Below the pieces are notes generated by a model. It saw nothing but the letters and a program-made list of their open reading frames with translations. It was not told where the DNA came from and ran no database searches. Below, in pieces: positions 27,197 through 64,000 of a stretch of DNA of 64,000 nt (position 1 is the stretch's first letter; every line of letters begins with the position of its first letter). Position numbers and translations under genes: made by a program. Origin of the DNA: a virus (Duplodnaviria > Caudoviricetes); the IMG/VR virus record IMGVR_UViG_3300018492_000150, positions 32,001 to 96,000 of that record. One strand, written 5' to 3'.

Positions 27197-27622
27197 CTAC
27201 GCTGGTATATATGCATTTAGATATATATTTGCTACATAGGCACTCCAATCGCCTGTAGTTGTTAGCATTATTTCTTTAGTATCTTTTCGCAAAAATATGC
27301 TTGCCATTTGATTATTATTATCTGACCATTGTATTGGATAACTTGCCCAACTCGATAAAATACATGATGATTCTGTGTCTATAGTATAGTCAACAGCCCT
27401 GGATGCTATTTCTGGATTTGCATCTAATATATTTTTAAACCCTATACGATACGTTTGTGTGGCATCAGAATTGGATAAAGTATACGTAATAATTGTTTCA
27501 TATACTTCTAAATCTGAACTTGATTTAAAACCAATTCTTCTTATCATATTTTTTCTAGTAAATTTATAAGGAGCATATTTAGATCCTACAGTATTAAAAT
27601 CTAAAATATCACTATATGCCAT
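27197..27622 (-). CDS. orphan small protein preceded by a 31-bp palindrome
   Basis: Start corrected to MAYSD (GGAGGT SD); hairpin terminator overlaps the stop. Confidence 0.7.
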   Translation of the reverse strand: MAYSDILDFNTVGSKYAPYKFTRKNMIRRIGFKSSSDLEVYETIITYTLSNSDATQTYRIGFKNILDANPEIASRAVDYTIDTESSCILSSWASYPIQWSDNNNQMASIFLRKDTKEIMLTTTGDWSAYVANIYLNAYIPA

Positions 27623-27635
27623 TCTTATATACCTC

Positions 27636-27666
27636 CCTAACATTCATGAAATTCATGAATGTTAGG
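27636..27666. repeat. 31-bp perfect palindrome, copy 1
   Basis: CCTAACATTCATGAA-a-TTCATGAATGTTAGG. Confidence 0.95.
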
Positions 27667-27985
27667 TAAGATTATTGTCTTGTGATATTATTTTTTTATA
27701 CATCCAGCCATCGGTCTTAGTTTTTATCAATCTATGCATAGCTCCCCAACTGAAATAATGCAGAACTAAACAATCTACATAATTTGTATATTTTTTATAT
27801 CCAAAAACTTCATAACTTGATCCTTTACTTGCAACGAAATGTAAAGAAAACACGCCATCGTAAATATCAGAATCTATTATTTTCTGTATAGATGATATAG
27901 CTTGAGAATCATCTACATTTACTTCTCTAGATATTCGTTGTATCCAAGATACATCCTTCATTATCACTTTATCAATATTACTCAT
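27662..27985 (-). CDS. orphan small protein flanked by two 31-bp palindromes
   Basis: Start corrected to MSNID (GGAGGT SD); its TAA stop lies inside palindrome copy 1. Confidence 0.7.
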   Translation of the reverse strand: MSNIDKVIMKDVSWIQRISREVNVDDSQAISSIQKIIDSDIYDGVFSLHFVASKGSSYEVFGYKKYTNYVDCLVLHYFSWGAMHRLIKTKTDGWMYKKIISQDNNLT

Positions 27986-27995
27986 ATTATACCTC

Positions 27996-28026
27996 CCTAA
28001 CATTCGAAATAATTTCGAATGTTAGG
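27996..28026. repeat. 31-bp perfect palindrome, copy 2 (variant)
   Basis: CCTAACATTCGAAAT-a-ATTTCGAATGTTAGG. Confidence 0.95.
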
Positions 28027-28045
28027 AAGATAAAAAAGAAATAAA

Positions 28046-28074
28046 ACTCCCAGTAGGATTTTCCTACTGGGAGT
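28046..28074 (-). terminator. terminator after the tail fibre gene (CCCAGTA family)
   Basis: actcccagtagga-ttt-tcctactgggagt with a T-run on the minus strand. Confidence 0.75.
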
Positions 28075-28083
28075 ATTTTTTTA

Positions 28084-31000
28084 CTATAATGCTTTCTTTT
28101 TATGCATATATAATGTAAGAGTTGTAGACGAATTTATAATTGTATCAATATTACCAAGAACTTCCCAAGTTCCTCCGCATGTAGATGAGAAGAATGTCGC
28201 ACTTGAACTTGTAGTCCATAATACTGTTCCGACAGGGAAATCTACTTTCTTAGCACTATTAGCAGGACCTCCTGCAGAAGAAGAACCTGCATAATTGTGG
28301 GTATGGCTTGTCGGAGCATACCCAGAATGAGAGTGAGATTTTGCCGCGGCACCTATAGCTGCAGGAGTAATGTTAACCTCTTTAGCAGCAGAACCATCAT
28401 AAGTTGCTGCTGTAGTACCATTTGTCTTAACTGTCAAAGCATATGGATTCTTAAGCGATGTAGGTAATCCAGTAATTTGACTTGCTGGATGTGTATGGCT
28501 AGAAGCTGCATAATTGTGGGTGTGTGAAGCAGCAGCAGCACCAATTTCTGACGGAGTTGGTTTATTTACTGAGCTATATATTTCACTCCAACTATTGAAA
28601 GATGTGCCATTATGAAATCTATAATATATAATATTATCACTTCCATGAAGTTTTTGTGCAATATTACCACCAGCTATTCTATACACTTCTAGACCAAAGT
28701 GTTCTACCGATGATGGTTTATTTTTTACAGTATTACCACCAGCAGCAAAATAATTTCCTGGAGTAAGCAAACTGTTCAAATCTTCTGAAGTTAATTGCTT
28801 AGAGTAACTATTTGGGATTTCTATATTCTTAGTTCCGTCGAATGAAATTCCATTAATAGTTCTAGCTGTTGCTAATTTTATTGCACTATTCGCAGACCCT
28901 CCTGCTGATCCAGACCCTGCATAGTTATGAGTATGGCTTGTTGGAGCATATCCAGAGTGAGAGTGGGATGCTGCAGCAGCACCTATAGCTGCAGGAGTAA
29001 TATTTACTGTCTTCGCAGACCCTCCGTTAAAAGTAAATTTATTAGTATCTTCAGTTGTACCGCCATTAAATTGCATGGTAAGTGCATATGGACTTACCTG
29101 TGCTGTTGGAATATTTACTGTTACTGCCCCCGAACCATCATATGTAGCTGTAGCAGCTCCAGTAAACTTAAGAGCATATGGGTTAGACAGCTTAGTAGGA
29201 ATCCCTGTAATTTGACTTGCTGGATGAGTGTGACTAGCCGCAGCTTTACCGTTTAATTGTGTTTGAACTGCACTTGTAACACCTTTCATATAGTTCAATT
29301 CAGTTGCTGAAGCAGTTACTCCTAATGCTGATAATGTTAATGATATAGGCTGCCAAGTCCCATCTCCTCTAAGATACTTGTTATTTTCTCCAACTCCTGG
29401 AGTTGGAACAAAACCAGTACCTCCTGCAGCTGAAGTAGTTGCTCCTTTAAATGTACTATGTCCATGACTAGCAGCTGCAGCTCCTACAGATGATGCCGTA
29501 ATATTAACTTCTTTAGATACAGAACCGTCATATACTGCAGCTGATGTTCCATTTGTCTTAACTGTCAAAGCATATGGATTCTTAAGCGATGTTGGAAGTC
29601 CTGTAATTTGACTTGCTGCATGAGTATGGCTAGCAGCTGCAGCTCCTATTAACGCAGGTGTTATATTAACATTCTTAGCTACTGATCCGTTAAAAGTAAA
29701 TTTATTAGTATCTTCAGTTGTACCGCCATTAAATTGCATGGTAAGTGCATATGGACTTGCCTGTGCTGTTGGAATATTTACAGTAACAGCTCCAGACCCA
29801 TCATATGTAGCTGTAGCAGCTCCAGTAAACTTAAGAGCTTGAGGATTAGGTAATTTAGTAGGTAATCCAGTAATTTGACTTGCTGGATGTGTATGGCTAG
29901 AAGGCGCTGCTCCTATTTCTGCAGCTGTAGGTTTGGCAGCTGCACTATATACTTTCTGCCAAGCCCCAAATGAAGCATTATCACGAACTCGATAATATAT
30001 GATATTATTATTTCCATGTAATTTTTGTGCAATAGGCCCACTAGCTATTCTATACACTTCTAGACCAAAGTAGTCTACCGATGATGGTTTATTTTTTACA
30101 GTATTACCGCCAGCACCAAAATAATTTCCAGGTGTAAGCAATTCATTAAGATCTTCTGAAGTTAATTGCTTAGAGTAATTATTTGGAATGTCTATATTCT
30201 TAGTACCATCAAATGAAATTCCATTAATAGTTCTAGCTGTAGCTAATTTTACTGCACTATTGGCTGATCCTCCAGCTGATCCTGAGCCAGCATAATTATG
30301 AGTATGGCTTGATGATGCTTTACCATTTAATTGTGTTTGAACTGCACTTGTAACACCTTTCATATAATTTAGTTCAGTTGCTGAAGCAGTTACTCCTAAT
30401 GCTGATAATGAAAGTGGAACTACTTGCCATGTCCCATCCCCTCTTAAGAATTTACTTTGTTCTCCTATTGCAGGTGCAGGAACAAATCCAGTACCACCAG
30501 CTGCTGAAGCAGATGCCCCTTTAAATACACTATGGCTATGACCAGATGTAGCAGCTCCAATTGAAGATGGTGTTATATTAACTTCTTTAGCAGCAGATCC
30601 ATCATAAGTTGCTGCAGTTGCACCATTAGTTTTAATACTAAGGGAATATGGATTTTTTAATGATGTAGGCAATCCAGTAATTTGAGATGATGGATGTGTA
30701 TGAGATGAAGCTGCAGCTCCAATTGAAGCTGGTGTTATATTAACTTCTTTAGCAGCAGAACCGTCAAATGTAAATTTATTGGTACCTTCAGTAACGCCAC
30801 CATTAAGTTGTAATGTGAGCTGTGAATTTGTTTTTGAGGTCGTAGGAATATTTACAGTAACAGCTCCAGACCCATCATATGTAGCTGTAGCAGCTCCAGT
30901 AAACTTAAGAGCTTGAGGATTAGGTAATTTAGTAGGTAATCCAGTAATATCAGAAGCAGCAATTTTTTGCCAAGATTCTGATCCTGCAGTAGCACCTGCT

Positions 31001-31296
31001 TTTAAGAATTTACCAGAATTGGTTGTTCCTGTAGCAGGAACATGATGGTTACCATCTCCAGTAGGATGCTTATAAGGAGCTCCTGTTGTGAGAGGATCCC
31101 ATTTAGAACCAGTATATACATAACTTGTACTGTTTTCTTTTACAAATACTCTTAAACCTGCGGTAGCGGCTTTAAGAGTAACGAGTCTATCTCTTTCGGC
31201 AATTGTTTCTACTTGTTGCCGCACATCTAATAACGCTTCAGCTTGAAGCTTAAAAGGTGATGCAACAACAATGCCTTTTTTATCTTCGAATGCCAT
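28084..31296 (-). CDS. long modular tail fibre protein
   Basis: Ala/Gly/Ser/Thr-rich with repeated SHTH/SHSH, YDGS..VNI and FLRGDGTW motifs, two knob-like domains (DLN.LLTPGNYF...IIYYR) and C-terminal FPVGTV; start corrected to MAFED. Confidence 0.85.
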   Translation of the reverse strand: MAFEDKKGIVVASPFKLQAEALLDVRQQVETIAERDRLVTLKAATAGLRVFVKENSTSYVYTGSKWDPLTTGAPYKHPTGDGNHHVPATGTTNSGKFLKAGATAGSESWQKIAASDITGLPTKLPNPQALKFTGAATATYDGSGAVTVNIPTTSKTNSQLTLQLNGGVTEGTNKFTFDGSAAKEVNITPASIGAAASSHTHPSSQITGLPTSLKNPYSLSIKTNGATAATYDGSAAKEVNITPSSIGAATSGHSHSVFKGASASAAGGTGFVPAPAIGEQSKFLRGDGTWQVVPLSLSALGVTASATELNYMKGVTSAVQTQLNGKASSSHTHNYAGSGSAGGSANSAVKLATARTINGISFDGTKNIDIPNNYSKQLTSEDLNELLTPGNYFGAGGNTVKNKPSSVDYFGLEVYRIASGPIAQKLHGNNNIIYYRVRDNASFGAWQKVYSAAAKPTAAEIGAAPSSHTHPASQITGLPTKLPNPQALKFTGAATATYDGSGAVTVNIPTAQASPYALTMQFNGGTTEDTNKFTFNGSVAKNVNITPALIGAAAASHTHAASQITGLPTSLKNPYALTVKTNGTSAAVYDGSVSKEVNITASSVGAAAASHGHSTFKGATTSAAGGTGFVPTPGVGENNKYLRGDGTWQPISLTLSALGVTASATELNYMKGVTSAVQTQLNGKAAASHTHPASQITGIPTKLSNPYALKFTGAATATYDGSGAVTVNIPTAQVSPYALTMQFNGGTTEDTNKFTFNGGSAKTVNITPAAIGAAAASHSHSGYAPTSHTHNYAGSGSAGGSANSAIKLATARTINGISFDGTKNIEIPNSYSKQLTSEDLNSLLTPGNYFAAGGNTVKNKPSSVEHFGLEVYRIAGGNIAQKLHGSDNIIYYRFHNGTSFNSWSEIYSSVNKPTPSEIGAAAASHTHNYAASSHTHPASQITGLPTSLKNPYALTVKTNGTTAATYDGSAAKEVNITPAAIGAAAKSHSHSGYAPTSHTHNYAGSSSAGGPANSAKKVDFPVGTVLWTTSSSATFFSSTCGGTWEVLGNIDTIINSSTTLTLYMHKKKAL

Positions 31297-31307
31297 TTTT
31301 TCGCCTC

Positions 31308-32288
31308 CTACCATTGAAATTTATTATTAAAATTGGTTACTGTAGACTTATCACTAACGTAAACATAATAATCTACAGTAGAGCCATCTAGACATTGAAT
31401 TGGTACGGTATATATTGTAAATGTGCTAGTTACATTGAAATTGTTCTGGTCGTAAATAGCACTTAAAGTACCGTATGATTTTGGATAAGCAAAAACAAAA
31501 CGTTGGTTATTTGCAGTAAATGAATAGGTCTTAGTTCCTTTACTTTCAATATGTTTTGTCAAAGCTTTAATTTCTTCTTGTGTTGGAATTGTATCTGTTG
31601 ATAAACTTCCATGATATATAGGATGAACAAAGGTAAATGTACCTGTGTTTTTTGATACAACTGCTCCTGTGTCATCATATACTTTAGCAGTAAAATATTT
31701 ATTGGTTCTAACTGCTATATTCAAAACAAAATCAAAAGTTCCACCTTTAGAAACTCCATCTGTTTTAGTAGCAATAATATTAGAACCTTCTACAATATCA
31801 ATCTTTGTAAGATTATTTGATTTAATTGTAGCATTAACTCTTATCTTAGTCACAGATACCAATGTACCCATCTCATAAGTTCCTCCATTTCCAGGAGTTA
31901 AAACTTGAGCAGATACAGTTGGAGAGACGTATGGATATAATATCATATCAAACATTTCTTGAAGAGTTTTATTATTAAATGTAGTACCAATAGGTATACC
32001 ACCATGCTCTACATAAGTAGGTATATTTTTATTATACCGTGAACCTAAAGACCAGTTATTTTTCTCTTCTTCAGTAACAAACTGATGGTCTTTATCAGTT
32101 ATAATTTCTCTTGCGGTATGTGTATGATTTTTATCAGCTTTACCGTTGATAGCATCTTCTACATTTGTACCGTCATCCATTATAACAGTCTTAGCCTTAG
32201 TTCTATAATATAAAGGCGTATCATCTTGAGGTTCACCAGTAGAAGGGTCTTCTCCGGGATTATCAATCCTTTCTAATTCTTCTGACAT
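31308..32288 (-). CDS. tail fibre/baseplate-associated structural protein
   Basis: NGKADKNHTH motif, beta-rich C-terminus, in the fibre operon; start corrected to MSEE. Confidence 0.6.
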   Translation of the reverse strand: MSEELERIDNPGEDPSTGEPQDDTPLYYRTKAKTVIMDDGTNVEDAINGKADKNHTHTAREIITDKDHQFVTEEEKNNWSLGSRYNKNIPTYVEHGGIPIGTTFNNKTLQEMFDMILYPYVSPTVSAQVLTPGNGGTYEMGTLVSVTKIRVNATIKSNNLTKIDIVEGSNIIATKTDGVSKGGTFDFVLNIAVRTNKYFTAKVYDDTGAVVSKNTGTFTFVHPIYHGSLSTDTIPTQEEIKALTKHIESKGTKTYSFTANNQRFVFAYPKSYGTLSAIYDQNNFNVTSTFTIYTVPIQCLDGSTVDYYVYVSDKSTVTNFNNKFQW

Positions 32289-32301
32289 GTATGTCACCTC
32301 C

Positions 32302-33183
32302 TTATTCTATTCTTATCCATGTATAGTAATCAACGACACGTTTGCCGTCTTTATCCATACTAGCTCCAGTACCAGCAAATTTCCAAGTACCAGGAAACCA
32401 TTTATTTGGATTAAATTCTCTATCATGAGATTCATATATAGTTCCAACTGGATGAATGTATCTAGCAACCATAGGATCGCCTTTATACGGTTCATCAAAG
32501 TTTGGTGGAAATTCATGAATATGATGATAATAGTCAATGTATAACATGATTTGATCATACATTTTATCTGTATATTCATGATTTTCTTTGTTTATATCAT
32601 CTATTTTTTGGTCTAATCTGTCTATTTCATTTTTTACATAAGTCTTGAAATTAGCAAGATATGTTTGTAAATCTGAAATATCGCTCTTATTAGTTTCATT
32701 ATCTTTTTCTAATACAGTAATTCGCTTTTCATGATCTTTTGAAATTTTCTCTTCTTCCGTAATTCGCTTTTCATGATCAGCTACTATATTTTGAAGTTCT
32801 GATACATCAGAATCTAAACCATCTAGACGTTTAAATATTTCTATAATGTCATTTTGAGCGTCAACAAGATCTTCTTGTATTCGTCCAACTTGTTGTTTTG
32901 TTCGTTCATGATCTTCAAACAAGTTATTTAATCTTGCTTCCAACTCTTCATCTTTATTGATCACATCTTTAAGGTGATCTTCTATATATTTTCGTATCTC
33001 AGCAAACTCTTTCTCCATTTGATCTATAATAGCTTGAAGTTTTTCGTCTGAACTAAAAAATAATTGTAATTGCTCTACTGTTATTTGTTTGGTGTCAGAT
33101 GTATCTTCAATAACCATTATGTCGGTAGGATTGATCTCAGAGTATTGCTTTTTTGGAAGTTCTTTGATCTTAATAGTAGGCAA
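32302..33183 (-). CDS. coiled-coil tail/baseplate protein
   Basis: TTG start after AGGAGG and a late promoter (33210-33221); heptad coil with DHEKRIT duplicated; C-terminal HPVGTIYES...NPNKWFPGTW. Confidence 0.65.
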   Translation of the reverse strand: MPTIKIKELPKKQYSEINPTDIMVIEDTSDTKQITVEQLQLFFSSDEKLQAIIDQMEKEFAEIRKYIEDHLKDVINKDEELEARLNNLFEDHERTKQQVGRIQEDLVDAQNDIIEIFKRLDGLDSDVSELQNIVADHEKRITEEEKISKDHEKRITVLEKDNETNKSDISDLQTYLANFKTYVKNEIDRLDQKIDDINKENHEYTDKMYDQIMLYIDYYHHIHEFPPNFDEPYKGDPMVARYIHPVGTIYESHDREFNPNKWFPGTWKFAGTGASMDKDGKRVVDYYTWIRIE

Positions 33184-33268
33184 ACAAGTCTCCTCCTTTC
33201 CTATTAATTTAATATGATGTTTTTCGATACAGTCTATTATCAAAAAAATATAGAGGATAGCCAAACGG

Positions 33269-34246
33269 CTATCCTCTATTGATTTTTCTTTGTATTTGAA
33301 CTTTCTGATGTTCTATAACTTCATGATATAATGTTTGTGGAGGTAAATCTCCATGAGGTGCATATATAAACCAAGTTCCATCATTCTTCTCATGATCCTT
33401 TACAGTAAACCAGTCATCCCAGAATACTTTTAATCCACTTTCATATATAGAGAAGTTATAAATAGCGTCATATTTTTGTATATCTATAACCTGATTTATA
33501 GGTACACTTACAATTTCAGCTTCCATATTATCGCTGACATCAAGAACCAGATGGATGTTTCGTTCTAATAATTTAGAAGTATCAGATCTTTCACATTCAA
33601 CCTCTTCCATCACAGTTCCAAATGGACTTGTAACAGGTCTAAGTTTCTTTCCATTTTCTGATATAGGAGCATCTGTTTTAGCTACAGTTAATAATCTTCC
33701 TCTATAAATGTGATATTTCCAACCATCATAAGTTGCTATAGACATCATATGTCCAGATATAACTTCTTTGACAATTAATTTAGTACGTATCTTCTTATCT
33801 TTAAAATAAGGTTTTACATACGAAATATCAAAAGCCCTTTTCTCGACAGCTTGTAATACCAATCCTGTATATGAACTAACACTTTTATCTATAAAGCGCT
33901 CTCTGTCATCTGGTGTATAGCTAATCATAGGGTTTTTGATGTGTTTGAGTTGCTCTAATTCTTCAGGTATAAACTGAAAATCTTTTCCATCCTCATCAAT
34001 AGTAGGATATTCTGGTTCAGGTGGATCCGGAGGAAATTTAATATCTAAATTCTCTTCAGATGGATTTCTAAACCTATCATCTGGGTATATAGGGTGAGGA
34101 TAATATACATCACTTATAAAATCATTTCCGGGTTTATGATTTATAGGTGGAGCGCCATGGATATATAGTCCATGGCGTTTTAATATTATCTCTGCTGCTT
34201 TCGAATAATCAAAGCCAGGTATTGAGTCTATATGATGATCTGCCAT
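33269..34246 (-). CDS. hypothetical protein, Pro-rich N-terminus
   Basis: 325-aa ORF with AGGAG SD. Confidence 0.75.
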   Translation of the reverse strand: MADHHIDSIPGFDYSKAAEIILKRHGLYIHGAPPINHKPGNDFISDVYYPHPIYPDDRFRNPSEENLDIKFPPDPPEPEYPTIDEDGKDFQFIPEELEQLKHIKNPMISYTPDDRERFIDKSVSSYTGLVLQAVEKRAFDISYVKPYFKDKKIRTKLIVKEVISGHMMSIATYDGWKYHIYRGRLLTVAKTDAPISENGKKLRPVTSPFGTVMEEVECERSDTSKLLERNIHLVLDVSDNMEAEIVSVPINQVIDIQKYDAIYNFSIYESGLKVFWDDWFTVKDHEKNDGTWFIYAPHGDLPPQTLYHEVIEHQKVQIQRKINRG

Positions 34247-34266
34247 TAATAATCACTCCTTTGAGT

Positions 34267-35538: not shown

Positions 35539-35557
35539 AATTATTCTCCTTTTATAT

Positions 35558-36136
35558 TTATTTATAATAAATCTCTACAAAATATTGATATACAAATCTC
35601 ACTAATGAGCTGATTCTACAATCATCACCGAATCCATATTTATCGACAATATCTTTAATAGTAGACTTGTATGTCTTATCTACACCATATTTCATAGATG
35701 ATATAATATCCTGATGATCTATAGCAAGCTGTAAATCCTCTATAGAATCTTTTGAATTTGAAAGCAATTTCAGATATTCTTCATACTGAGGATTGTAATA
35801 TAGTTTATCTATACAAGCAAGCATTAATAAATCCTCATTTAAAGATTCAAATGAAGTTGTATCATGAATAGCTCCTTTGTAAAGATTTCTAGGTCTACGT
35901 CTATCCCCCTCGTCTTCAATAGATATAGAATATTTAAAACTGCAATATCCGACAGGATATAATTCCTGACCACAATAAGATTGGATAAAGTATTTATTTA
36001 ATAATACAGCCAAAACCACGAAAGGCTCCTCTGCTACATATCCGATATTTTTTACAGTCTTATGAATACCATCTACATTTTCTACTAAGTTTATAGATGT
36101 AAGTCTTTGAATTCCGTTAGTTGATTCAATAACCAT
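35558..36136 (-). CDS. hypothetical protein
   Basis: 192-aa ORF with GGAGG SD. Confidence 0.75.
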   Translation of the reverse strand: MVIESTNGIQRLTSINLVENVDGIHKTVKNIGYVAEEPFVVLAVLLNKYFIQSYCGQELYPVGYCSFKYSISIEDEGDRRRPRNLYKGAIHDTTSFESLNEDLLMLACIDKLYYNPQYEEYLKLLSNSKDSIEDLQLAIDHQDIISSMKYGVDKTYKSTIKDIVDKYGFGDDCRISSLVRFVYQYFVEIYYK

Positions 36137-36148
36137 AATACAACCTCC

Positions 36149-36998: not shown

Positions 36999-37760
36999 TT
37001 ACCTTATATTTGTTATAGAATCAAAATCTTCTTGAAGTTGTGATTTTTTAGGAGCATCTACATAATATGAATCAAAAACACTATTCGGTATAGTATATAT
37101 ACCAGAACTTTCACCATCATCATGAAGATGATTATGCTCGTACCAAGCTTTCCTAGTTCTAGGATCATTTCTAAGCATTTCATCAGCTCTTCGATTATCT
37201 TCATTTTGTTGGTGATTCCACTCTTCATATGATATGGATTCACAAGAATCAAAGAATTGTTTCTGCTCTGCAGCAAATTCAGATTCGTCCACTACCATAT
37301 CTCTAGCTATATTAGTAGTATCCTCTCCAAGTCCCATCTCTACAGTAATGTCTTCATCTGTAGATATAGTTCCTTTTTGAAGACCAAATCTTTCCATAAG
37401 ATCTTTACCTTCATACCAAATATATAATGCTAGTAAGTATGAGAATATCTGGTCATCGTGAGCATTAGAAGCGTGCTCAATTCTACCATTTTTCTTAACC
37501 TCTAACGTACAAAGTTCATTATATATTATAGGTGATATGAATTTAGCTTTATGATTATCCATTCTATCTCTAAGAATTCCCATCAGTAATTCTCGAGATG
37601 CTTTTGTTTCATCAAAACCGTACACTTTAACTTTTTTAGTTATCTTCTGTATAGACATACCTTGAGCTCTTTCTTCTAACGTACGGTCTTTTATTTCATA
37701 ATACAGATTACGCTTAATTTTAGTTTTAATGAGCTGTGATAATACACTAGCTCCGAAACC
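36999..37760 (-). CDS. terL: terminase large subunit, exon 2 (nuclease C-terminus)
   Basis: GFGASVL...YGFDETKASR...IEHASNAHDDQIFSYLLA; no SD; continues exon 1 across a group I intron. Confidence 0.85.
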   Translation of the reverse strand, partial: GFGASVLSQLIKTKIKRNLYYEIKDRTLEERAQGMSIQKITKKVKVYGFDETKASRELLMGILRDRMDNHKAKFISPIIYNELCTLEVKKNGRIEHASNAHDDQIFSYLLALYIWYEGKDLMERFGLQKGTISTDEDITVEMGLGEDTTNIARDMVVDESEFAAEQKQFFDSCESISYEEWNHQQNEDNRRADEMLRNDPRTRKAWYEHNHLHDDGESSGIYTIPNSVFDSYYVDAPKKSQLQEDFDSITNIR

Positions 37761-52244: not shown

Positions 52245-52246
52245 TT

Positions 52247-55518: not shown

Positions 55519-55541
55519 GACAATTCCTCCTTTTATATTAT

Positions 55542-55608: not shown

Positions 55609-55635
55609 AATTAATAAAGAGGAGGTCGAATACTG

Positions 55636-58113: not shown

Positions 58114-58959
58114 ATGAGTTTATTTGATGATATTGTAAGTTCATTCTATCTTACAGAAGACAACACTGGAGATGATGACGAACAAAATACAGAAAACCAA
58201 AATCAGAATCAAGAAGGAAATGAACCTGCTCCTGCAGCTGAAGATAATCAGGATGGTGAGGGTGATAGTACCGGTGGAGAAGAAGGTGAAGGCGCTGATA
58301 ATGGTGATGAATATCAGATGAATGATCCTGAAGCAGATGATGCCGGGGGAGAAGAAGGCACTGACGACAATCAAGAAGAAGGCGGAGAGGATAATCAAAA
58401 CCAAGGAGAAGAAGATGAATATCAGATGAATGATCCTGAAGCAGATGATACTGAAGAAGGAAACGGCCAAGGGGCTGAGGGAGAAGAAGGTAATGATGGA
58501 AATGAAGATGAATATCAGATGAATGATCCTGAAGCAGATGATACTGAAGAAGGCGGCGAAGATACTGATGATACTGCTGGTAGCGAACCAACTGATGATC
58601 CATCATCTAAATTAAAAGATATAGAAAAATCTATCTTTGACCAGTTAACTTCCGAGCAGCAAGCTGCTAAAACTAAAGAACTTAAGAGTCTCTATACTGA
58701 TACTTACAATAAATGTCAAACGATTGTAGATATGGTTAGCACAGCAGAGAAAGAACCTTCTCAAGCTAAAGTATACGACTATATCATTAACAATCTAGTA
58801 GATCTTCAGAAATATATTAGAGATTATCTTGATGATATTTTTGATAGTAAGACATATATAGAAAATATGACTGAACTTCAGAAGTATCTTGCTATATTAG
58901 ATACAATTAATAATGTATTTGAAGAGATAAAGAAAGGATCCGAAACACAGGCAAAATAG
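58114..58959 (+). CDS. highly acidic protein, candidate scaffold/inner-head protein
   Basis: D/E/G/N-rich N-terminal half with three DEYQMNDPEADD repeats; immediately upstream of the capsid gene. Confidence 0.6.
   Translation: MSLFDDIVSSFYLTEDNTGDDDEQNTENQNQNQEGNEPAPAAEDNQDGEGDSTGGEEGEGADNGDEYQMNDPEADDAGGEEGTDDNQEEGGEDNQNQGEEDEYQMNDPEADDTEEGNGQGAEGEEGNDGNEDEYQMNDPEADDTEEGGEDTDDTAGSEPTDDPSSKLKDIEKSIFDQLTSEQQAAKTKELKSLYTDTYNKCQTIVDMVSTAEKEPSQAKVYDYIINNLVDLQKYIRDYLDDIFDSKTYIENMTELQKYLAILDTINNVFEEIKKGSETQAK
58306..58542 (+). repeat. three identical 36-bp intragenic repeats
   Basis: gatgaatatcagatgaatgatcctgaagcagatgat at 58306, 58414 and 58507. Confidence 0.9.
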
Positions 58960-58983
58960 TATCTGTGTAAAATTGGATATAAT

Positions 58984-58995
58984 AACAATATAGTA
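58984..58995 (+). promoter_or_regulatory. late promoter AACA-N6-TA (major capsid)
   Basis: aacaatatagta. Confidence 0.75.
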
Positions 58996-59053
58996 AATAT
59001 TTAATGTAAATTAAATAAGAAAAAATTGATGAGTAAGAAAGGAGACTAATACT

Positions 59054-60820
59054 ATGATTATTGGTGAAGCGCCGAGACGTAATATGTCCGACAGTTTTAA
59101 AAACGACCCAATGCATAGTTTCGTTGAGTCCTATGTTAATCTTACACAGGGCATCTTAAACGAAAATGCAACTGATATATATACAGACCCAGCAAGAGCA
59201 TTTATGGCAAATGGAAGTAACGAAGCTCTTAAAAACTTCTTCGTAGAAAATTCTTACGATCCACAGGGTATGACTCCAGATGAAATCGAAGACCATGTTG
59301 CTACTATGGAACAACAGTATGACAATGACCGTTCAGGTCTTCTTGAGCAGACAATGATGAGCTCTATGAATCCAATGATCGGCATCACAATTCCGATGCA
59401 CAAATGGATTCTTATGAATATGGTATTTGACAAAGGTGCTATTCCGAAGTTTGTTGCTCGTTCACCGAAGTTTACAATTTCTATGGAATATCGTATCTTG
59501 GTTGACACAGAAGGAAATGAACTGGATATGTTCCGTGATCAGAACCTTATGACAGACGCTATCGAAAAGACAGCTCCAGAGGTTGAGTTTGAACTTCCAA
59601 CACTTCCATTCACAGATGACAATGAAGTTGTACACACCTACCTTAACGGTCTTGCAGGCGCAGATCATCTGTCTATTGAGACAAGAATCTCAGCTTTTAA
59701 AATCCAAAACCAGTATTTTGAAATTGGCGATATTCTTCCAGATGAGAAGACTGGATATATTGAGCCAAATGGTAAAGTAGCTACAGAAGCAGGTAATCAT
59801 GATGTTTGGGTTAGATGTAATTATGCATTTGCACCTACATATGGTGAAGTTGAACGTGCTCTTATGGCGAACGTTTCTTATGAGTATAAAGTAAATGAAG
59901 GCGGAGTTAAGATCAAGAAAATTACAGACTTCGTTTCTGGTACAATGCAGAACGACAGACTTAACATTCAGGTTCTTAAAGGAAACCTTAAAGGTATTCG
60001 TATCACTTCAAGATTGGATACATCCAGTGCACGTCTTACAACATGTAGCGTAAGATGGAAAGAGAAAACAGATATTGTTGAAATTCCAAATGCTATTCCG
60101 ATAGACGTAACAGTATCTCCAGAAGAAACAAAAGATATCGCAGCTCTTTACAATGTAAATCAGGTAACTAAGATCATGAGCATGATCAAAACAGTTCTTG
60201 GAAATACAAAAGACGATCAGATCAGAAGAAAACTTGATCAGTCTTATAAGACAATGGATGTACGTTCTAAAACATACAGCCAGTTCGATTACGCTCCTCG
60301 TGAAGGATATCACGGAGATCATGTTGAGTGGAGAAGAAATACATTCTTCGATTTCTTCGATTCTCAGATGACAAAACTGTATCAGGTATTAAACGATCCG
60401 AACATGACAGTTTCTGTATTCGGTGATCCAGATCTTGTAAGAAAGATTACACCGACAGATTATAGCTACCAGACACCGTCTAACATCGGACCAGTGCAGC
60501 TTGACTTCACAAAGACAGTTGTTACTTCTGATTCTAGAGTATACAACTTCATCGGTTCTGATAAACTTCGTGGATCAACAGAATTTATCGTAGTTCTGTG
60601 TCCAAGAGGAACAGATAGAATTATCTACAGAATCTATGATTACCAGATGTATATCAGCAATGAAATTAGAAACGCTGATAATCCGGCATTACCGAACATC
60701 CATGCATTCGAGCGTTGGAAATTCGTAGAATATCAGCCAGTTCAGGGACGTATCAATATCTTACATCCTACAGGATTGACAGATCACTACGACTTTGTTC
60801 AGGTTAAACAAGTTCAGTAA
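59054..60820 (+). CDS. major capsid protein
   Basis: 588 aa, highly expressed-type codon usage, own late promoter and terminator, located after protease and scaffold-like genes; acidic propeptide-like N-terminus. Confidence 0.75.
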   Translation: MIIGEAPRRNMSDSFKNDPMHSFVESYVNLTQGILNENATDIYTDPARAFMANGSNEALKNFFVENSYDPQGMTPDEIEDHVATMEQQYDNDRSGLLEQTMMSSMNPMIGITIPMHKWILMNMVFDKGAIPKFVARSPKFTISMEYRILVDTEGNELDMFRDQNLMTDAIEKTAPEVEFELPTLPFTDDNEVVHTYLNGLAGADHLSIETRISAFKIQNQYFEIGDILPDEKTGYIEPNGKVATEAGNHDVWVRCNYAFAPTYGEVERALMANVSYEYKVNEGGVKIKKITDFVSGTMQNDRLNIQVLKGNLKGIRITSRLDTSSARLTTCSVRWKEKTDIVEIPNAIPIDVTVSPEETKDIAALYNVNQVTKIMSMIKTVLGNTKDDQIRRKLDQSYKTMDVRSKTYSQFDYAPREGYHGDHVEWRRNTFFDFFDSQMTKLYQVLNDPNMTVSVFGDPDLVRKITPTDYSYQTPSNIGPVQLDFTKTVVTSDSRVYNFIGSDKLRGSTEFIVVLCPRGTDRIIYRIYDYQMYISNEIRNADNPALPNIHAFERWKFVEYQPVQGRINILHPTGLTDHYDFVQVKQVQ

Positions 60821-60841
60821 TTAAAAGATGACGCAGCAGAG

Positions 60842-60880
60842 AATCCCAGTACCACTAATGGTACTGGGATTTCTATTTTT
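60842..60880 (+). terminator. terminator after the capsid gene (CCCAGTA family)
   Basis: aatcccagtacca-ctaa-tggtactgggatt followed by T-rich sequence. Confidence 0.8.
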
Positions 60881-60964
60881 GTCTGATTATTTTTATCCTA
60901 TTCTCATAAATACTTTATAATAATATATTATAATAGCGATAAAAATATATAAGGAGGAATAAAT

Positions 60965-61654
60965 ATGAATGCAATTGTGGCTATTGATGATAAGAATGGA
61001 ATTGGAAAAGAAGGACAGCTTTTAATAAAATTAAAAGCTGATATGAAATGGTTTAAAAATATTACTACTAACAAAGTAGTTATTATGGGAAGAAAAACTA
61101 TGGAAAGTATAGGAAAACCACTACCTAATAGATTAAATATTGTACTTACTAGAAATTATACATTAAATAAACCTGGATATATTTTTCTTCATTCTATCGA
61201 AGATCTCATGATGTTTCTGAGACTCAAACGTATCTCTACAAAGGATTGTTTTGTAATTGGCGGACAGCAAATTTATAAAGCTCTAGAAAGACAGATAACG
61301 TATGTATACGTTACAAGAATTCATAAAACATTTGAATCAGACGCAAAATTTCCTATACCATTTAAAGCTATGAAACTACTATGTTCATCTCGTATTAGAG
61401 GAGAAAATGGAATTAATTATGAATTTCAGGTATATAGAAATTGTGGATTGTTCTTAGATTTTTTACAACATATATTAGAAAGACCATTAAGAACTGATGA
61501 GATTGAATTATCTAAAAGAATACTAACTTCTGATACAAATTTGAAATTGGTATTGGTAGAAGGGACAGCAGAACAATTAGGAATAGATACATCTAAAGGA
61601 TTAAGAAGAAAATTCAGTTATGAAACTATAAAAGAATTCTCAGAAGACAAATAA
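60965..61654 (+). CDS. folA: dihydrofolate reductase with C-terminal extension
   Basis: AIVAIDDKNGIGKEGQL, DMKWFKNITT, VIMGRKTMESIGKPLPNRLNIVLTR, FVIGGQQIY, DAKFP. Confidence 0.93.
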   Translation: MNAIVAIDDKNGIGKEGQLLIKLKADMKWFKNITTNKVVIMGRKTMESIGKPLPNRLNIVLTRNYTLNKPGYIFLHSIEDLMMFLRLKRISTKDCFVIGGQQIYKALERQITYVYVTRIHKTFESDAKFPIPFKAMKLLCSSRIRGENGINYEFQVYRNCGLFLDFLQHILERPLRTDEIELSKRILTSDTNLKLVLVEGTAEQLGIDTSKGLRRKFSYETIKEFSEDK

Positions 61655-61795
61655 AAGAGAGGATAGGATTAAATCCTATCCTCTATATATTTTTTTGGAA
61701 TTATTTCAAATTTTCAATTACATATTATCATCATGAAAAGGATACAGAGTCACACCTCTGTATCCTTATATCCCCAATTGAAAGGAGATGATTTC

Positions 61796-61969
61796 ATGAA
61801 AAACCTTCTTATGGAACATACGTTCCATGATTGCATGGTCGGAGATATACTCCAGCCTGTACCCGTGATCGTAACACAGGATAATGGCGATGGTACTTAT
61901 CAAGGTTATCTTGACCTAGATAAGATGTCAGCTAAACAACGTATCGTAGCAGATATGTTTAGCCATTAA
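61796..61969 (+). CDS. 57-aa hypothetical early protein
   Basis: AAGGAG SD; CATATTAT-N5-TGA at 61721-61736; leader hairpin; own terminator. Confidence 0.6.
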   Translation: MKNLLMEHTFHDCMVGDILQPVPVIVTQDNGDGTYQGYLDLDKMSAKQRIVADMFSH

Positions 61970-62093
61970 CCATAACAATAGAGAGTTATCGTCCCACCTC
62001 TCTATTATTTTTTTGTTACCTAATATATTATTTTACCAATACTTAATATCTTCACATACAAGTAATTTATTAGTATGAAAGGAGCTAAATACA

Positions 62094-63341
62094 ATGAATC
62101 AAAATTTAGAAGGATTATACAAATGTATACTTGAATTAGGTTCAACATCTGATTTTGAAAATATAACACCTTTGAATGATTTGACCAATGCAATGAGAAG
62201 AGAACTGAACAGATTGTTTCCTGATTTTAAGTGTGGAGAAGTGATTATCAATAAAAATACAGATAAACAGTTTTTTGGTATTATAGTAGTTCCGGATTAT
62301 AAATTTGGATCTTGCTCTGATTTTGCTCAAAGAGTTCTTCAGGGATATAAAGGAACTTATGTACATAATGCAGTTAGAGAATTCGAACCTTTTAAAGAAT
62401 GTGCATATACATTAGAAATAGATATGCAGTTAATTAGAAGATTTGATCTTAAACCAGGTGAAGTAATTGCTCTTGTATTGAGAGAAATATGTGTTATGAA
62501 TTCTCCGAAACCATATTCCGATTTAAGAAACATCATTGACAGATTCGTTGCTCTAAATAATATAGAGCTTGACGTATATGAAATTCTAACAAGACCTGAA
62601 TTATTTTCTACAGTATGCGATGTAACTATGCATAACATAACAAGTATATTCGAAGGAAATAATCTTGAATTATATAGGAATGATGTCCCTGATGTATTGA
62701 GAACATTTGAAGATAATATTCCGGATTATTATTTATCTGCAACAGAGAAGCTTTATTCTGTAGCTACTCCTGAGAGTATAGATACTGCTACTGTATTAAT
62801 GGATTGGTATCTTAGAATATATGATAAATTAGATCAAAGCAGGGAAATAGAATATCTTCTTAGAGATAGTATAGAAATAGAATCAAGTATTATTATTAAA
62901 CGCATGCTCGCATATTGCTATAAGAGTATGTCAACAGTTTCTCCAAGAGACGAGAAATACTATCAAGATGTAGTTCAAGAGTCTTCAAGAAGAAAAGGTC
63001 TTATTTATCAAATGAAACGTAATGGATTGAAATCTATTGAAGAGGACTTATTTGAATATAATATGAGATTGCGAAATGTGGAGACCCAGGACGATGCTAT
63101 TTTGTTAATGAGACAGATTAACAGCAGAATGAGTATTCTTGAAGATTATCTTATGGGAGAAAAAGATCTTGATGATAAAGAAAGAGAAAGATGGGAGACT
63201 TGTTACAAGAAATATCTTGATCTTAGAGAGTCTTTATCTAAAAAGACAGTATATAATAAGAAGATGTACGGTTTATTCGTAGACTATAATGCGTTGCAGA
63301 ATATGTCTCAGAGCGGAAATCTTATGAATACTTATTACTAA
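62094..63341 (+). CDS. hypothetical (probably virion) protein
   Basis: 415 aa, AAGGAG SD, CACA-N6-TA promoter variant, terminator at 63348-63377. Confidence 0.75.
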   Translation: MNQNLEGLYKCILELGSTSDFENITPLNDLTNAMRRELNRLFPDFKCGEVIINKNTDKQFFGIIVVPDYKFGSCSDFAQRVLQGYKGTYVHNAVREFEPFKECAYTLEIDMQLIRRFDLKPGEVIALVLREICVMNSPKPYSDLRNIIDRFVALNNIELDVYEILTRPELFSTVCDVTMHNITSIFEGNNLELYRNDVPDVLRTFEDNIPDYYLSATEKLYSVATPESIDTATVLMDWYLRIYDKLDQSREIEYLLRDSIEIESSIIIKRMLAYCYKSMSTVSPRDEKYYQDVVQESSRRKGLIYQMKRNGLKSIEEDLFEYNMRLRNVETQDDAILLMRQINSRMSILEDYLMGEKDLDDKERERWETCYKKYLDLRESLSKKTVYNKKMYGLFVDYNALQNMSQSGNLMNTYY

Positions 63342-63398
63342 AAATATCAGAGATAGCGGATATTCTCCGCTATCTCTTTTCTTTTTATATATTTCTTA

Positions 63399-63429
63399 CC
63401 TAACATTCATGAAATTCATGAATGTTAGG
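63399..63429. repeat. 31-bp perfect palindrome, copy 3
   Basis: CCTAACATTCATGAA-a-TTCATGAATGTTAGG. Confidence 0.95.
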
Positions 63430-63442
63430 GAGGTATATACGG

Positions 63443-63892
63443 ATGAGCTCTACTGATAAAATTATGTTCGATTTTTCATCTAAGTTTAATATTAAACTTA
63501 AATCAAATATACAACTGAATTCTGGAAAAAATTATTATTGGATAAATACATATTACTTTAATATAGAGGCATATGGAGATACCTCAGGAACTTACATAGG
63601 AGGTAATGTAAGTGATGCTATGATGGTAAATGGAATGTGTTTTGTTCAGTTTAATCTTACGGGTAATTATATAAACTATAAAAATAGCTGGTTAGAATTT
63701 GTTTCTGGAGAGGGATATGGGTCGAAAATATATTCAACATATTTGTCAGATTCTGAAAAACATAGTGGAGGAAATCCATTAAATATATATCAAGGAATTA
63801 GACAAATGATGTTAGTTATAGATACTACTCAAGCTTGCACATTATTTCCAAATAATTTACTTTTCCATATATGGAGAATAAATTGTAGATAG
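63443..63892 (+). CDS. orphan small protein preceded by a 31-bp palindrome
   Basis: Start corrected to MSSTDK (GGAGGT SD); aromatic, beta-rich; hairpin at 63887-63916 overlaps the stop. Confidence 0.7.
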   Translation: MSSTDKIMFDFSSKFNIKLKSNIQLNSGKNYYWINTYYFNIEAYGDTSGTYIGGNVSDAMMVNGMCFVQFNLTGNYINYKNSWLEFVSGEGYGSKIYSTYLSDSEKHSGGNPLNIYQGIRQMMLVIDTTQACTLFPNNLLFHIWRINCR

Positions 63893-63924
63893 ATTGGATA
63901 TAATTCCAATCTATCTATTTCTTA

Positions 63925-63955
63925 CTTAACATTCATGAATTTCATGAATGTTAAG
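63925..63955. repeat. 31-bp perfect palindrome, copy 4 (variant)
   Basis: CTTAACATTCATGAA-t-TTCATGAATGTTAAG. Confidence 0.95.
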
Positions 63956-63971
63956 GTAGGTGATATATAAG

Positions 63972-64000
63972 ATGAATATAATAAAATTTAAGCCATATTA
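63972..64000 (+). CDS. 3'-truncated gene following palindrome copy 4
   Basis: AGGTG SD then ATG AAT ATA ATA AAA TTT AAG CCA TAT, open to the window end. Confidence 0.5.

What the first reader, a model, noticed from the sequence alone, without database searches (positions are those of the whole stretch)
27197..64000. Palindrome-headed gene cassettes: four perfect 15-1-15 inverted repeats, each abutting the RBS of a small orphan gene
Seen: 31-bp perfect palindromes at 27636, 27996, 63399 and 63925. Length is invariant and differences are fully compensatory (inner ATGAA/TTCAT vs GAAAT/ATTTC in copy 2; outer CC/GG vs CT/AG in copy 4), so symmetry itself is conserved. Each is followed immediately by an SD (GGAGGT or AGGTG) and a gene; the three complete genes are 107-149 aa, aromatic/beta-rich and not visibly similar to each other. 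Three copies share the upstream flank TCTTAC. They occur as tandem pairs at two loci 36 kb apart in opposite orientation. One pair sits right after the tail fibre gene and the other runs off the window end, so that array may continue. They lack the U-tail of the terminators here, and three follow a separate terminator. The arms contain AACA, the late-promoter core, but not TA at the usual distance. Inference: these are either recombination sites for an integron/shufflon-like array of exchangeable genes (possibly receptor-binding or anti-defence modules), or a dedicated dyad operator/hairpin promoter defining a regulon. No recombinase gene is visible in this window.
Basis: partly seen in the sequence, partly recalled or inferred. 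Interest (0 to 1): 0.8.

Follow-up and report, generated by a model that had tools for sequence, protein, structure and literature searches.

The report
Palindromic expression head of phage cassettes
A giant human-gut phage puts the same perfect 31-base palindrome plus ribosome site in front of each of its small, rapidly exchanged accessory genes; this is most likely a portable control module that also marks where genes are swapped, not an integron-like recombination site.

Summary
The four perfect 15-1-15 palindromes are real (0.02 expected by chance). They are the only copies in the 113.6-kb contig, so the array does not continue past the window.

Each is the core of a polar head of about 60 nt: TTTCTTAC flank, palindrome, GGAGGTATAT ribosome site, ATG. 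The phage is an AR9-like jumbo phage. Related viral and human-gut contigs add 43 distinct heads in front of at least 19 protein families.

Core genes of these phages are 97-100% identical. No tyrosine, serine or Y1 recombinase was found, which argues against an integron or shufflon mechanism.

Variation inside the palindrome favours an RNA hairpin on the sense strand:
- compensated changes;
- six G·U-type changes against one mismatch;
- no A·C.

The 5' arm also carries a near-consensus late promoter at the usual distance from ATG.

Best reading (about 45%): a T4 e/I-TevI-style promoter-in-hairpin leader, multiplied into a PeSL-like module that doubles as a recombination patch. Transcript ends were not mapped, so the mechanism is inferred.

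The parts
27636..27666 (-). Palindrome copy 1 (ATGAA type). It heads the 141-aa gene, and its outer TAA is the stop codon of the upstream 107-aa gene.
27996..28026 (-). Palindrome copy 2 (GAAAT inner variant). It heads the 107-aa gene and follows the tail-fibre terminator.
   Evidence: the same variant sits at the orthologous spot in G001, G002 and G005
63399..63429 (+). Palindrome copy 3 (centre A). It heads the 149-aa gene.
63925..63955 (+). Palindrome copy 4 (outer CT/AG type, with ribosome site GTAGGTGAT). It heads the 152-aa gene, which runs off the window.
27197..27622 (-). Cassette gene A, 141 aa. A low-confidence model gives a beta-sandwich. The G002 allele is 51% identical (dS 0.87), and the gene is absent from G001.
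27662..27985 (-). Cassette gene B, 107 aa. Alleles are 49-57% identical. The model (pLDDT 79) resembles phage receptor-binding or tail-fibre domains only at middling Z (6-7).
63443..63892 (+). Cassette gene c3, 149 aa, 91% identical in G001, with dN/dS about 0.5.
63972..64000 (+). Start of cassette gene c4 (152 aa in the contig). In G001 an unrelated 152-aa ORF takes its place between the same head and the same terminator.
63385..63398 (+). Pyrimidine-rich 5' flank (ATATATTTCTTAC) of head 3. It is predicted to pair with GGAGGTATAT in read-through RNA. The equivalent flanks are 27667-27674(-), 28027-28034(-) and 63911-63924(+).
28046..28074 (-). Hairpin terminator with U-run after the tail-fibre gene, directly upstream of head 2.
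63349..63377 (+). Hairpin terminator with U-run after the 415-aa gene, directly upstream of head 3.
63886..63917 (+). Hairpin after cassette c3, upstream of head 4.
27181..27210 (-). Terminator closing cassette A. A canonical late promoter (AACA-N6-TA) for the next virion gene follows.
28084..31296 (-). Tail-fibre gene with a variable C-terminal part. The cassette pair sits just downstream of it.

Best explanation
The palindrome is the core of a conserved, polar expression head of about 60 nt: TTTCTTAC-type flank, 31-bp palindrome, GGAGGTATAT ribosome site, ATG. The head serves small accessory genes in a clade of AR9-like jumbo phages from the human gut.

Proposed working (inferred):
- In RNA arriving from upstream, the palindrome nucleates a helix of 14 bp, extendable to 20-25 bp. 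The 5' flank pairs with the ribosome site, so read-through transcripts are poorly translated.
- The phage's own late RNA polymerase starts at a near-consensus promoter (AACA-N6-AA) in the 5' arm, that is, at the centre of the palindrome. This gives a leader of about 30 nt with a free ribosome site.
- This is the logic of the T4 e, soc, 49 and I-TevI leaders, here turned into a repeated module.

The same 50-60 nt recur at many loci in both orientations, and the core is its own reverse complement. The heads therefore also serve as homology patches for general recombination. This would explain why the genes behind them are replaced, gained, lost and inverted between otherwise near-identical phages, as with the PeSL cassettes of T4-like phages. 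No dedicated recombinase is needed.

Shown: the element, its polarity, its conservation, the cassette turnover, and the strand-specific pairing pattern. Inferred: the start site, the translational gating, and the recombination role.
For: Identity of the phage and spread of the element
- Split RNA polymerase subunits.
- AR9-type early (ATATATTAT-N6-G) and late (AACA-N6-TA) motifs upstream of genes (consensus from PMC5312081).
- 43 distinct heads occur in five related viral contigs and in human-gut metagenome contigs. None occurs in prokaryote genomes or in deposited phage records.

Conservation
- About 7-8 changes in roughly 1,290 paired bases, while flanking core genes have dS 0.03-0.26.

RNA hairpin on the sense strand
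- The palindrome helix is 99.8% paired when wobble pairs are counted.
- Five pairs show changes on both sides.
- All four one-sided changes give G·U or U·G.
- In total there are six G·U-type changes, one mismatch and no A·C in gene orientation.
- Core genes show no strand bias: 978 versus 1,011. My own binomial estimate is p about 0.01-0.06.

Occlusion of the ribosome site
- Fold energies are -22 to -27 kcal/mol, z -5.4 to -7.1.
- Predicted unpaired probability of the ribosome site is 0.22 in the full leader, 0.66 in RNA starting at the centre, and 0.54 for other genes.

Promoter
- AACA-N6-TA is enriched 10-fold upstream of genes, with a median distance of 40 nt from AACA to ATG.
- In the heads this distance is 38-44 nt (41-44 in the ATGAA-type heads).
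- In AR9, position -1 matters less than AACA and +1 (PMC5449584).
- Most heads sit just after a terminator or face a divergent gene, so they need a promoter of their own.

Cassette turnover
- Head-bearing genes are variable in 40 of 42 genome-pair comparisons, against 205 of 1,028 for other genes.
- Presence or absence polymorphisms.
- The same site is occupied in opposite orientations.
- One ORF is replaced exactly between the head and the terminator.
- Alleles A and B have dS 0.87-2.1, against 0.26 or less in the flanking genes.
- Chimeric heads exist.
- The centre base is only A or T, with at least five A/T flips between orthologous heads.
Against: - No transcript ends are available, so the start site is a guess.
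- The promoter match lacks the T at -1, and AACA-N6-AA is not enriched upstream of other genes.
- The GAAAT variant fits only with N8 spacing.
- Three natural variants break the 5'-arm AACA (to GACA, AGCA and AATA) while keeping pairing. This fits a pure RNA element better than a promoter.
- The flank to ribosome-site extension is only moderately supported: 67% paired, and 14% of control genes are as occluded.
- Two of the G·U cases (T2·G30) could be products of recombination between head types rather than of selection.
- Empty sites carry no solo palindrome, so simple palindrome-to-palindrome excision does not explain the indels.
- Several cassette families may be distant paralogues: hhalign gives up to 86% probability, and they share an N-terminal motif. 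Part of the shared head may therefore reflect common descent.
Confidence: 0.45

Rival explanations
1. A purely RNA-level 5'-UTR element. The genes are transcribed from upstream, and the hairpin is a stabiliser, an RNase III processing site, or the operator of an RNA-binding translational regulator. There is no promoter inside it.
For: - The G·U pattern is specific to the sense strand, and there are compensated changes.
- Variants that destroy AACA keep the pairing.
- Copy 1 lies inside an operon, overlapping the upstream stop codon.
- The helix of 20-25 bp is long enough for RNase III.
- The near-invariant sequence suggests a sequence-specific binder.
Against: - Most heads lie 10-25 nt after strong hairpin-plus-U terminators or face divergent genes.
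- No canonical promoter lies between the terminator and the palindrome.
- A helix of -25 kcal/mol over the ribosome site would block translation unless it is processed.
Confidence: 0.25
2. A DNA operator, or a symmetric and orientation-independent promoter, bound by a dimeric phage regulator or by the polymerase. It would define a co-regulated set of accessory genes, and no RNA structure would matter.
For: - The dyad is perfect, with nested sub-palindromes (TTCATGAA twice, or TTCGAA twice).
- AACA is present on both strands.
- Leftward-facing terminators abut many heads.
- Earlier scan notes report similar palindromic heads with embedded late-promoter motifs in other gut jumbo phages. These are leads only.
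Against: - The one-sided changes are all of G·U type on the gene strand and never A·C. A duplex-DNA site does not predict this.
- The inner five pairs were swapped wholesale with symmetry kept.
- No candidate regulator has been identified.
Confidence: 0.15
3. A site-specific recombination site for cassette capture or inversion (integron, shufflon or IS200/IS605-like). It might be recognised as a folded single strand by a recombinase encoded elsewhere in the genome.
For: - Cassettes vary in number, order, content and orientation.
- The strand-specific tolerance of G·T would also fit a single-stranded DNA hairpin.
- The flank often ends in TTAC, the IS608 target (from my own knowledge).
- The contigs are incomplete (20-68%).
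Against: - No Y1 transposase, tyrosine recombinase or serine recombinase was found in five contigs totalling 587 kb.
- The palindrome is fused to the ribosome site at a fixed distance from the ATG.
- It is perfect, with no extrahelical bases.
- There is a single head per cassette and no matching 3' site.
- Empty sites keep no scar or solo site.
- In the replacement at locus 2, homology runs through the whole head up to the ATG.
Confidence: 0.08
4. A plain transcription terminator or insulator hairpin.
For: It forms a stable hairpin and sits between genes.
Against: - It has no U-run.
- It is A/T-rich, unlike the G+C-rich terminators of this genome.
- Three copies follow a real terminator.
- Copy 1 lies between two co-oriented genes of a pair.
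- The distance to the ribosome site is fixed.
Confidence: 0.02

Closest known systems
PeSL (promoter-early stem-loop) mobile regulatory cassettes of T4-like phages (Arbiol et al. 2010, PMC2839356; Comeau et al. 2014, PMC4122927)
   Same: - A repeated composite motif (stem-loop, ribosome site, start codon, sometimes the upstream stop codon) lies directly before orphan genes.
- It is concentrated where closely related phages differ by insertions, deletions and replacements.
- The proposed exchange is by homologous recombination, without a dedicated recombinase.
   Different: - There is no sigma-70 promoter, because this phage uses its own AR9-type polymerases.
- One stereotyped, perfect 31-bp palindrome replaces variable G/C-rich stem-loops.
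- The stem-loop lacks terminator features.
- The cassettes sit among late and virion genes, not in early hyperplastic regions.
- Mini-circles were not tested.
T4 e (lysozyme), soc, 49 and I-TevI leaders: a late promoter inside the 5' strand of a hairpin that occludes the ribosome site (reviewed in PMC3014915)
   Same: - A predicted helix covers the ribosome site in read-through RNA.
- A late-promoter-like motif in the 5' strand would start transcripts that lack that strand.
   Different: - The promoter type differs: AACA-N6-(T)A for a non-virion multisubunit polymerase, not TATAAATA with gp55.
- The match is imperfect, and neither start sites nor translation were measured.
- The element here is multiplied and portable.
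AR9 late promoters, AACA-N6-T(A/G) (PMC5312081, PMC5449584, PMC9209446)
   Same: - AACA lies at the canonical distance from the ATG.
- A purine would be at +1 in the ATGAA type.
- Canonical promoters of this type are abundant in the same genome.
   Different: - Position -1 is A, not T.
- The motif is embedded in a palindrome, so a mirror copy faces the other way.
- Three natural variants lack AACA.
Integron attC sites and gene cassettes
   Same: Arrays of small, unrelated and exchangeable genes are each marked by a palindromic element. The folding may be strand-specific.
   Different: - attC lies at the 3' end of a cassette, is imperfect with extrahelical bases, and needs IntI.
- Integron cassettes are promoterless.
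- Here the element is a 5' head with its own ribosome site, and no integrase was found.

Membership tests
PeSL-type mobile regulatory cassette | A repeated composite motif directly upstream of orphan genes, including the ribosome site and start codon. | tested here: met
   43 distinct heads share flank, palindrome, ribosome site and ATG.
PeSL-type mobile regulatory cassette | Association with insertions, deletions and replacements between closely related phages. | tested here: met
   40 of 42 comparisons are variable, against 205 of 1,028 for other genes. Indels, replacements and opposite orientations are all seen.
PeSL-type mobile regulatory cassette | Contains a strong sigma-70-type early promoter. 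| tested here: not met
   I saw no -35/-10 pair in the head by eye. The promoter scan tool was not run. The phage carries AR9-type promoters.
PeSL-type mobile regulatory cassette | The stem-loop acts as a terminator or attenuator. | not testable with these tools
   The palindrome has no U-run, and separate terminators precede three of the four copies.
PeSL-type mobile regulatory cassette | Formation of mini-circles by recombination between neighbouring motifs. | not testable with these tools
   This needs reads or PCR.
T4 e/I-TevI-type promoter-in-hairpin leader | An RNA helix that sequesters the ribosome site in upstream-initiated transcripts. | tested here: inconclusive
   Predicted unpaired probability of the ribosome site is 0.22, against 0.54 for other genes. 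The flank helix is 67% paired.
T4 e/I-TevI-type promoter-in-hairpin leader | A late promoter within the 5' strand, so that late RNA lacks that strand. | tested here: inconclusive
   AACA-N6-AA lies 38-44 nt from the ATG (canonical median 40). It lacks T at -1, and three variants break it.
AR9-type late promoter | AACA at -11 to -8. | tested here: met
   Present in the 5' arm of 40 of 43 heads.
AR9-type late promoter | T at -1 and A or G at +1, six bases after AACA. | tested here: not met
   The bases are AA in the ATGAA type and AT in the GAAAT type. AACA-N6-AA is not enriched upstream of genes.
Integron (attC/IntI) | A tyrosine recombinase encoded with the array. | tested here: not met
   PF00589 gives no match in five contigs. 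The genomes are incomplete.
Integron (attC/IntI) | An imperfect palindrome with extrahelical bases at the 3' end of promoterless cassettes. | tested here: not met
   The palindrome is perfect, lies at the 5' end, and is fused to a ribosome site. Terminators separate the cassettes.
Shufflon (Rci/sfx) | A recombinase, plus repeats inside a coding region that invert C-terminal segments. | tested here: not met
   No recombinase was found. The palindromes are intergenic gene heads.
IS200/IS605 or REP/RAYT | A Y1 HUH transposase, and hairpins at both ends of the element. | tested here: not met
   PF01797 gives no match. There is one head per cassette. The palindrome is absent from 185,579 prokaryote genomes.
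Intrinsic terminator | A G+C-rich stem followed by a U-run. | tested here: not met
   The stem is A/T-rich and is followed by GGAGG.

The most novel reading that the evidence does not exclude
The perfect palindrome may be a recombinase-free, orientation-independent exchange site. Because it is its own reverse complement, any two heads can pair either as direct or as inverted repeats. Hairpin formation or template switching at the palindrome would flip its centre. Together these would let whole promoter-plus-gene cassettes, several of them receptor-binding modules, be inserted, inverted and swapped at many loci of a jumbo phage. This would be a new kind of cassette system. Palindromic heads noted in other gut jumbo phage lineages (unchecked notes) may be parallel cases.
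Probability: 0.15. Interest if true: 0.85.

Novelty: new variant of a known kind. Interest (0 to 1): 0.6.

Why it matters
AR9-like jumbo phages transcribe their genomes with their own RNA polymerases, and their post-transcriptional control and genome plasticity are almost unstudied.

A single, near-invariant module that supplies the ribosome site, a likely promoter and likely translational gating to every fast-evolving accessory gene would explain how such phages plug in new genes. It would also explain how they swap host-range modules between strains.

The module also gives practical handles:
- a sequence tag for finding the variable gene set of this clade in gut metagenomes;
- a candidate portable expression element for engineering these phages;
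- a small test system for promoter-in-hairpin control by a non-canonical polymerase.

Tried and rejected
Searches that found nothing
- Megablast and blastn against deposited phages gave no match for either locus or for the head.
- The major capsid protein is only about 21% identical to those of Staphylococcus, Yersinia and Listeria jumbo phages.
- Rfam gave only chance-level hits.
- The palindrome is absent from prokaryote genomes.

Protein function of the small cassettes
- PHROGs and Pfam gave nothing for the four window cassettes.
- The word-index search found one cluster for gene A.
- The full HMMER search found four proteins. One is a eukaryotic Ig-repeat protein that I take as spurious.
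- The ESM Atlas gave generic beta-sandwich leads.
- Fold searches gave Z of 7.2 or less, which is in the noise range. For gene B the top hits were phage receptor-binding or fibre domains.

Ideas rejected
- Mutational strand bias as the cause of the G·U pattern: core genes show 978 versus 1,011.
- An early (virion polymerase) promoter in the flank: ATATATT-TC only partly matches ATATATTAT-N6-G and occurs in a minority of heads.
- Continuation of the array past the window end.
- Right-arm-plus-ribosome-site and inner-core pattern scans of viral contigs added only one further related contig, G005.
- A single-protein locus search found only close relatives, so no distant clade was available for deeper covariation.
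Full report
**Observation.**
Four perfect 15-1-15 palindromes lie at window 27636-27666, 27996-28026, 63399-63429 and 63925-63955. The pattern YTAACATTC-N11-GAATGTTAR gives 4 matches against 0.02 expected, and none of 100 shuffles reaches 4.

The window is bases 32001-96000 of a 113,639-bp IMG/VR viral contig (31.8% G+C, estimated 46% complete). The whole contig holds only these four copies, even with 2 mismatches allowed. The fourth cassette ends at contig position 96430 and a convergent gene follows, so the array does not continue.

The element is polar. A pyrimidine-rich flank (TTTCTTAC, or ATCTTC in copy 2) lies on one side. GGAGGTATAT (or GTAGGTGATAT in copy 4) and an ATG 10-16 nt away lie on the other. 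The stop codon of the 107-aa gene lies inside palindrome 1.

**What the phage is.**
PHROG hits include split RNA polymerase beta-type subunits, split DNA polymerase, terminase, sheath, a major head protein and a 1,070-aa tail fibre.

Upstream of genes I find the AR9 early motif ATATATTAT-N6-G and the AR9 late motif AACA-N6-TA (consensus from PMC5312081). AACA-N6-TA is enriched 10-fold upstream of genes relative to coding sequence, with a median distance of 40 nt from AACA to ATG.

The capsid protein is only about 21% identical to those of Staphylococcus, Yersinia and Listeria jumbo phages, and no deposited phage matches at the DNA level. This is an uncultured AR9-like lineage. Metagenome hits come largely from human-gut assemblies.

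**Spread of the element.**
The palindrome with the same flanks occurs in five further viral contigs: G001 with 7 copies, G002 with 3, G003 with 6, G004 with 1 and G005 with 3. It also occurs in many gut metagenome contigs.

After removing duplicates there are 43 distinct heads. They stand in front of at least 19 protein families as defined by blastp.
- Most are 91-174 aa.
- A 248-aa protein has a Gp10_C fibre domain.
- A 583-aa protein is pectate-lyase-like.

The palindrome is absent from 185,579 prokaryote genomes.

**Cassette behaviour.**
Core proteins of G000, G001, G002 and G005 are 97-100% identical, with dS 0.03-0.26 and dN/dS 0.03-0.12. Genes behind a palindrome behave differently.
- They fall below 90% identity or are absent in 40 of 42 genome-pair comparisons, against 205 of 1,028 for other genes (the comparisons are not independent).
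- A palindrome-plus-132-aa unit lies between the DHFR and capsid genes in G001 and is absent from G000.
- A palindrome-plus-142/144-aa unit lies next to the 530-aa DNA polymerase gene in G001 and G004, but in opposite orientations. It is absent from G000.
- At locus 2 the G000 and G001 sequences agree through the hairpin, flank, palindrome and ribosome site up to the ATG. They agree again from about 12 nt before the terminator. Between these points lie unrelated ORFs, each of 152 aa.
- After the fibre gene, G001 has a 583-aa gene behind the GAAAT-type palindrome where G000 and G002 have the 107/99-aa gene.
- Alleles of genes A and B have dS 0.87-2.1, far above their flanks, so they came from divergent donors. 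c3 and family F4 have flank-like dS and dN/dS of about 0.47.

The cassette reading stands.

**No recombinase.**
Pfam models for the Y1 transposase, tyrosine recombinase and serine recombinase find nothing in the five contigs (587 kb), while the control genomes respond. The empty sites keep no solo palindrome. The element is a 5' head fused to the ribosome site, not a 3' attC-like site. I therefore do not file it as an integron, a shufflon or an IS200-type element.

**At what level does the palindrome act?**
Across the 43 heads the palindrome helix is 99.8% paired when wobble pairs are allowed. Five pairs change on both sides: the inner swap, the outer CC/GG to CT/AG change, and one C-G to T-A change. 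Four pairs change on one side only, always to G·U or U·G.

Read in gene orientation, the imperfect copies show:
- T2·G30, seen twice;
- T3·G29;
- G4·T28;
- G5·T27;
- T6·G26;
- one C2/T30 mismatch;
- no A·C.

In core genes, sense-strand C>T plus A>G (978) equals G>A plus T>C (1,011) among 2,669 polarised changes. Mutational strand bias therefore does not explain the pattern. My own binomial estimate is p about 0.01, or about 0.06 if the two T2·G30 cases are set aside as possible recombinants between the two head types.

This favours a hairpin on the sense strand, most simply in RNA. RNA folds give -22 to -27 kcal/mol (z -5.4 to -7.1). In all four window copies the helix extends from the palindrome into pairing between the flank and the ribosome site. 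Over all heads:
- the predicted unpaired probability of the ribosome site is 0.22;
- it is 0.66 for RNA beginning at the palindrome centre;
- it is 0.54 for other genes, of which 14% are as occluded as the heads.

Flank to ribosome-site pairing is only moderately supported: 67% of cells are paired, and the duplex energy is -5.4 against -2.7 kcal/mol in controls.

**Promoter question.**
Most heads lie 10-25 nt after a hairpin-plus-U terminator or face a divergent gene, and no canonical promoter lies in between. The head should therefore carry a promoter.

The only candidate is AACA in the 5' arm. It lies 38-44 nt from the ATG (41-44 in the ATGAA-type heads), against a canonical median of 40. 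The start would then fall at palindrome position 15.

In AR9, AACA and +1 are essential and -1 matters less (PMC5449584). Against this:
- the heads have A, not T, at -1;
- AACA-N6-AA is not enriched elsewhere;
- three natural variants change this AACA to GACA, AGCA or AATA.

The two lines of evidence can be joined in the known T4 scheme for genes e, soc, 49 and I-TevI. There, read-through RNA folds over the ribosome site, while a late promoter inside the 5' strand gives translatable RNA (PMC3014915). I hold this at about 45%. A purely RNA-level element is the main rival, at about 25%.

**DNA-level dynamics.**
The centre base is T in 34 heads and A in 9, and never G or C. Orthologous heads that are otherwise identical differ only there, in at least five independent cases. 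Ordinary substitutions from A or T are A/T transversions only about 22% of the time.

The centre therefore appears to flip. The cause could be template switching at the hairpin or conversion between oppositely oriented copies. Alternatively, the site may be constrained to A or T.

Chimeric heads exist, with a type II palindrome joined to a type I ribosome site. About 7-8 changes in roughly 1,290 palindrome bases, set against dS of 0.1 or more in neighbouring genes, points to strong constraint or to homogenisation among copies.

**Cassette proteins.**
About half of the head-bearing proteins (11 of 23 in five genomes) begin with M-x-x-x-D-x-[ILV]-x-[FVM], against 10 of about 600 others. Synonymous codon variation indicates a protein-level motif.

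Profile comparison links some families:
- F7-F18 at 86%;
- F2-F12 at 54%;
- F4-F5 at 46%.

Part of the set may therefore be one fast-evolving superfamily.

Gene A models as a low-confidence beta-sandwich (pLDDT 62). Gene B (pLDDT 79) has phage receptor-binding and tail-fibre domains as its top matches, but only at Z 6-7.2. I treat a tail or host-range role as a lead, not a finding.

**Comparison with known systems.**
The closest analogues are the PeSL cassettes of T4-like phages (PMC2839356, PMC4122927), which match on the architecture and on the role in shuffling, and the T4 promoter-in-hairpin leaders (PMC3014915), which match on the proposed control logic.

This case differs in several ways:
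- the promoter type is different;
- there is one invariant perfect palindrome;
- the cassettes sit among late genes;
- they occur in either orientation.

Earlier notes of this scan describe similar palindromic heads before small fibre genes in other gut jumbo phages, and a centre-flipping palindrome. They are unchecked leads, and I did not examine those genomes.

**Verdict.**
- The cassette idea is supported.
- The integron-like mechanism is not supported.
- The element is a new variant of a known kind.
- The mechanism remains inferred until 5' ends are mapped.

Noticed in passing
window 61796-61969 (+), and contig 97186-97353, which lies beyond the window: Two paralogous genes of 55-57 aa flank the second cassette locus. 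Each has its own conserved head: a hairpin, then ATATCCCC..GAAAGGAGATGA, then ATG. This is a second, different family of hairpin-headed small genes.
   Followed up: no
whole window, for example 60900-60960 (+) upstream of the DHFR gene: AR9-type early promoter motifs (ATATATTAT-N6-G) and late motifs (AACA-N6-TA, enriched 10-fold upstream of genes) occur throughout. This uncultured gut phage therefore probably shares AR9's two-polymerase transcription programme. It also encodes DHFR (60965-61654), so whether its DNA carries uracil like AR9 is open.
   Followed up: partly
starts of the palindrome-headed genes, for example window 27596-27622 (-) and 63443-63469 (+): About half of the otherwise unrelated cassette proteins share the N-terminal motif M-x-x-x-D-x-[ILV]-x-[FVM]. 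A Gp10_C-type fibre protein in G003 also has it. It may be a docking or targeting strand.
   Followed up: partly
relatives: G003 37403-37426, G002 about 168230-168254, L091, L125: Many heads are preceded by a second hairpin, GGTAAGARAC-N4-GTYTCTTACC. Its 3' arm is the head's flank. It shows a compensatory A-T to G-C change with a G·T intermediate, and it is followed by a T-run only in the direction leading away from the gene.
   Followed up: partly
G003 27685-27713 and L097 about 835: One GAAAT-type palindrome has the TCTTACC flank mirrored onto the gene side and no adjacent ribosome site. This is what an exchange within the palindrome between oppositely oriented heads would produce.
   Followed up: no
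window 28084-31296 (-): The C-terminal part of the tail-fibre gene carries HxH repeats. It diverges (67-84% identity over partial lengths) between phages whose neighbouring genes are 97-100% identical. The fibre in G002 is only 610 aa.
   Followed up: no
contig ends in L089, L122, L077 and G002: Several metagenome contigs end at or within a few dozen bases of a palindrome. This fits assembly breaks at a repeated element or real structural heterogeneity there.
   Followed up: no
window 14034-16730 (+): The phage encodes an SbcC-like subunit of a palindrome/hairpin nuclease (PHROG 77). This could bear on how its perfect palindromes are processed.
   Followed up: no
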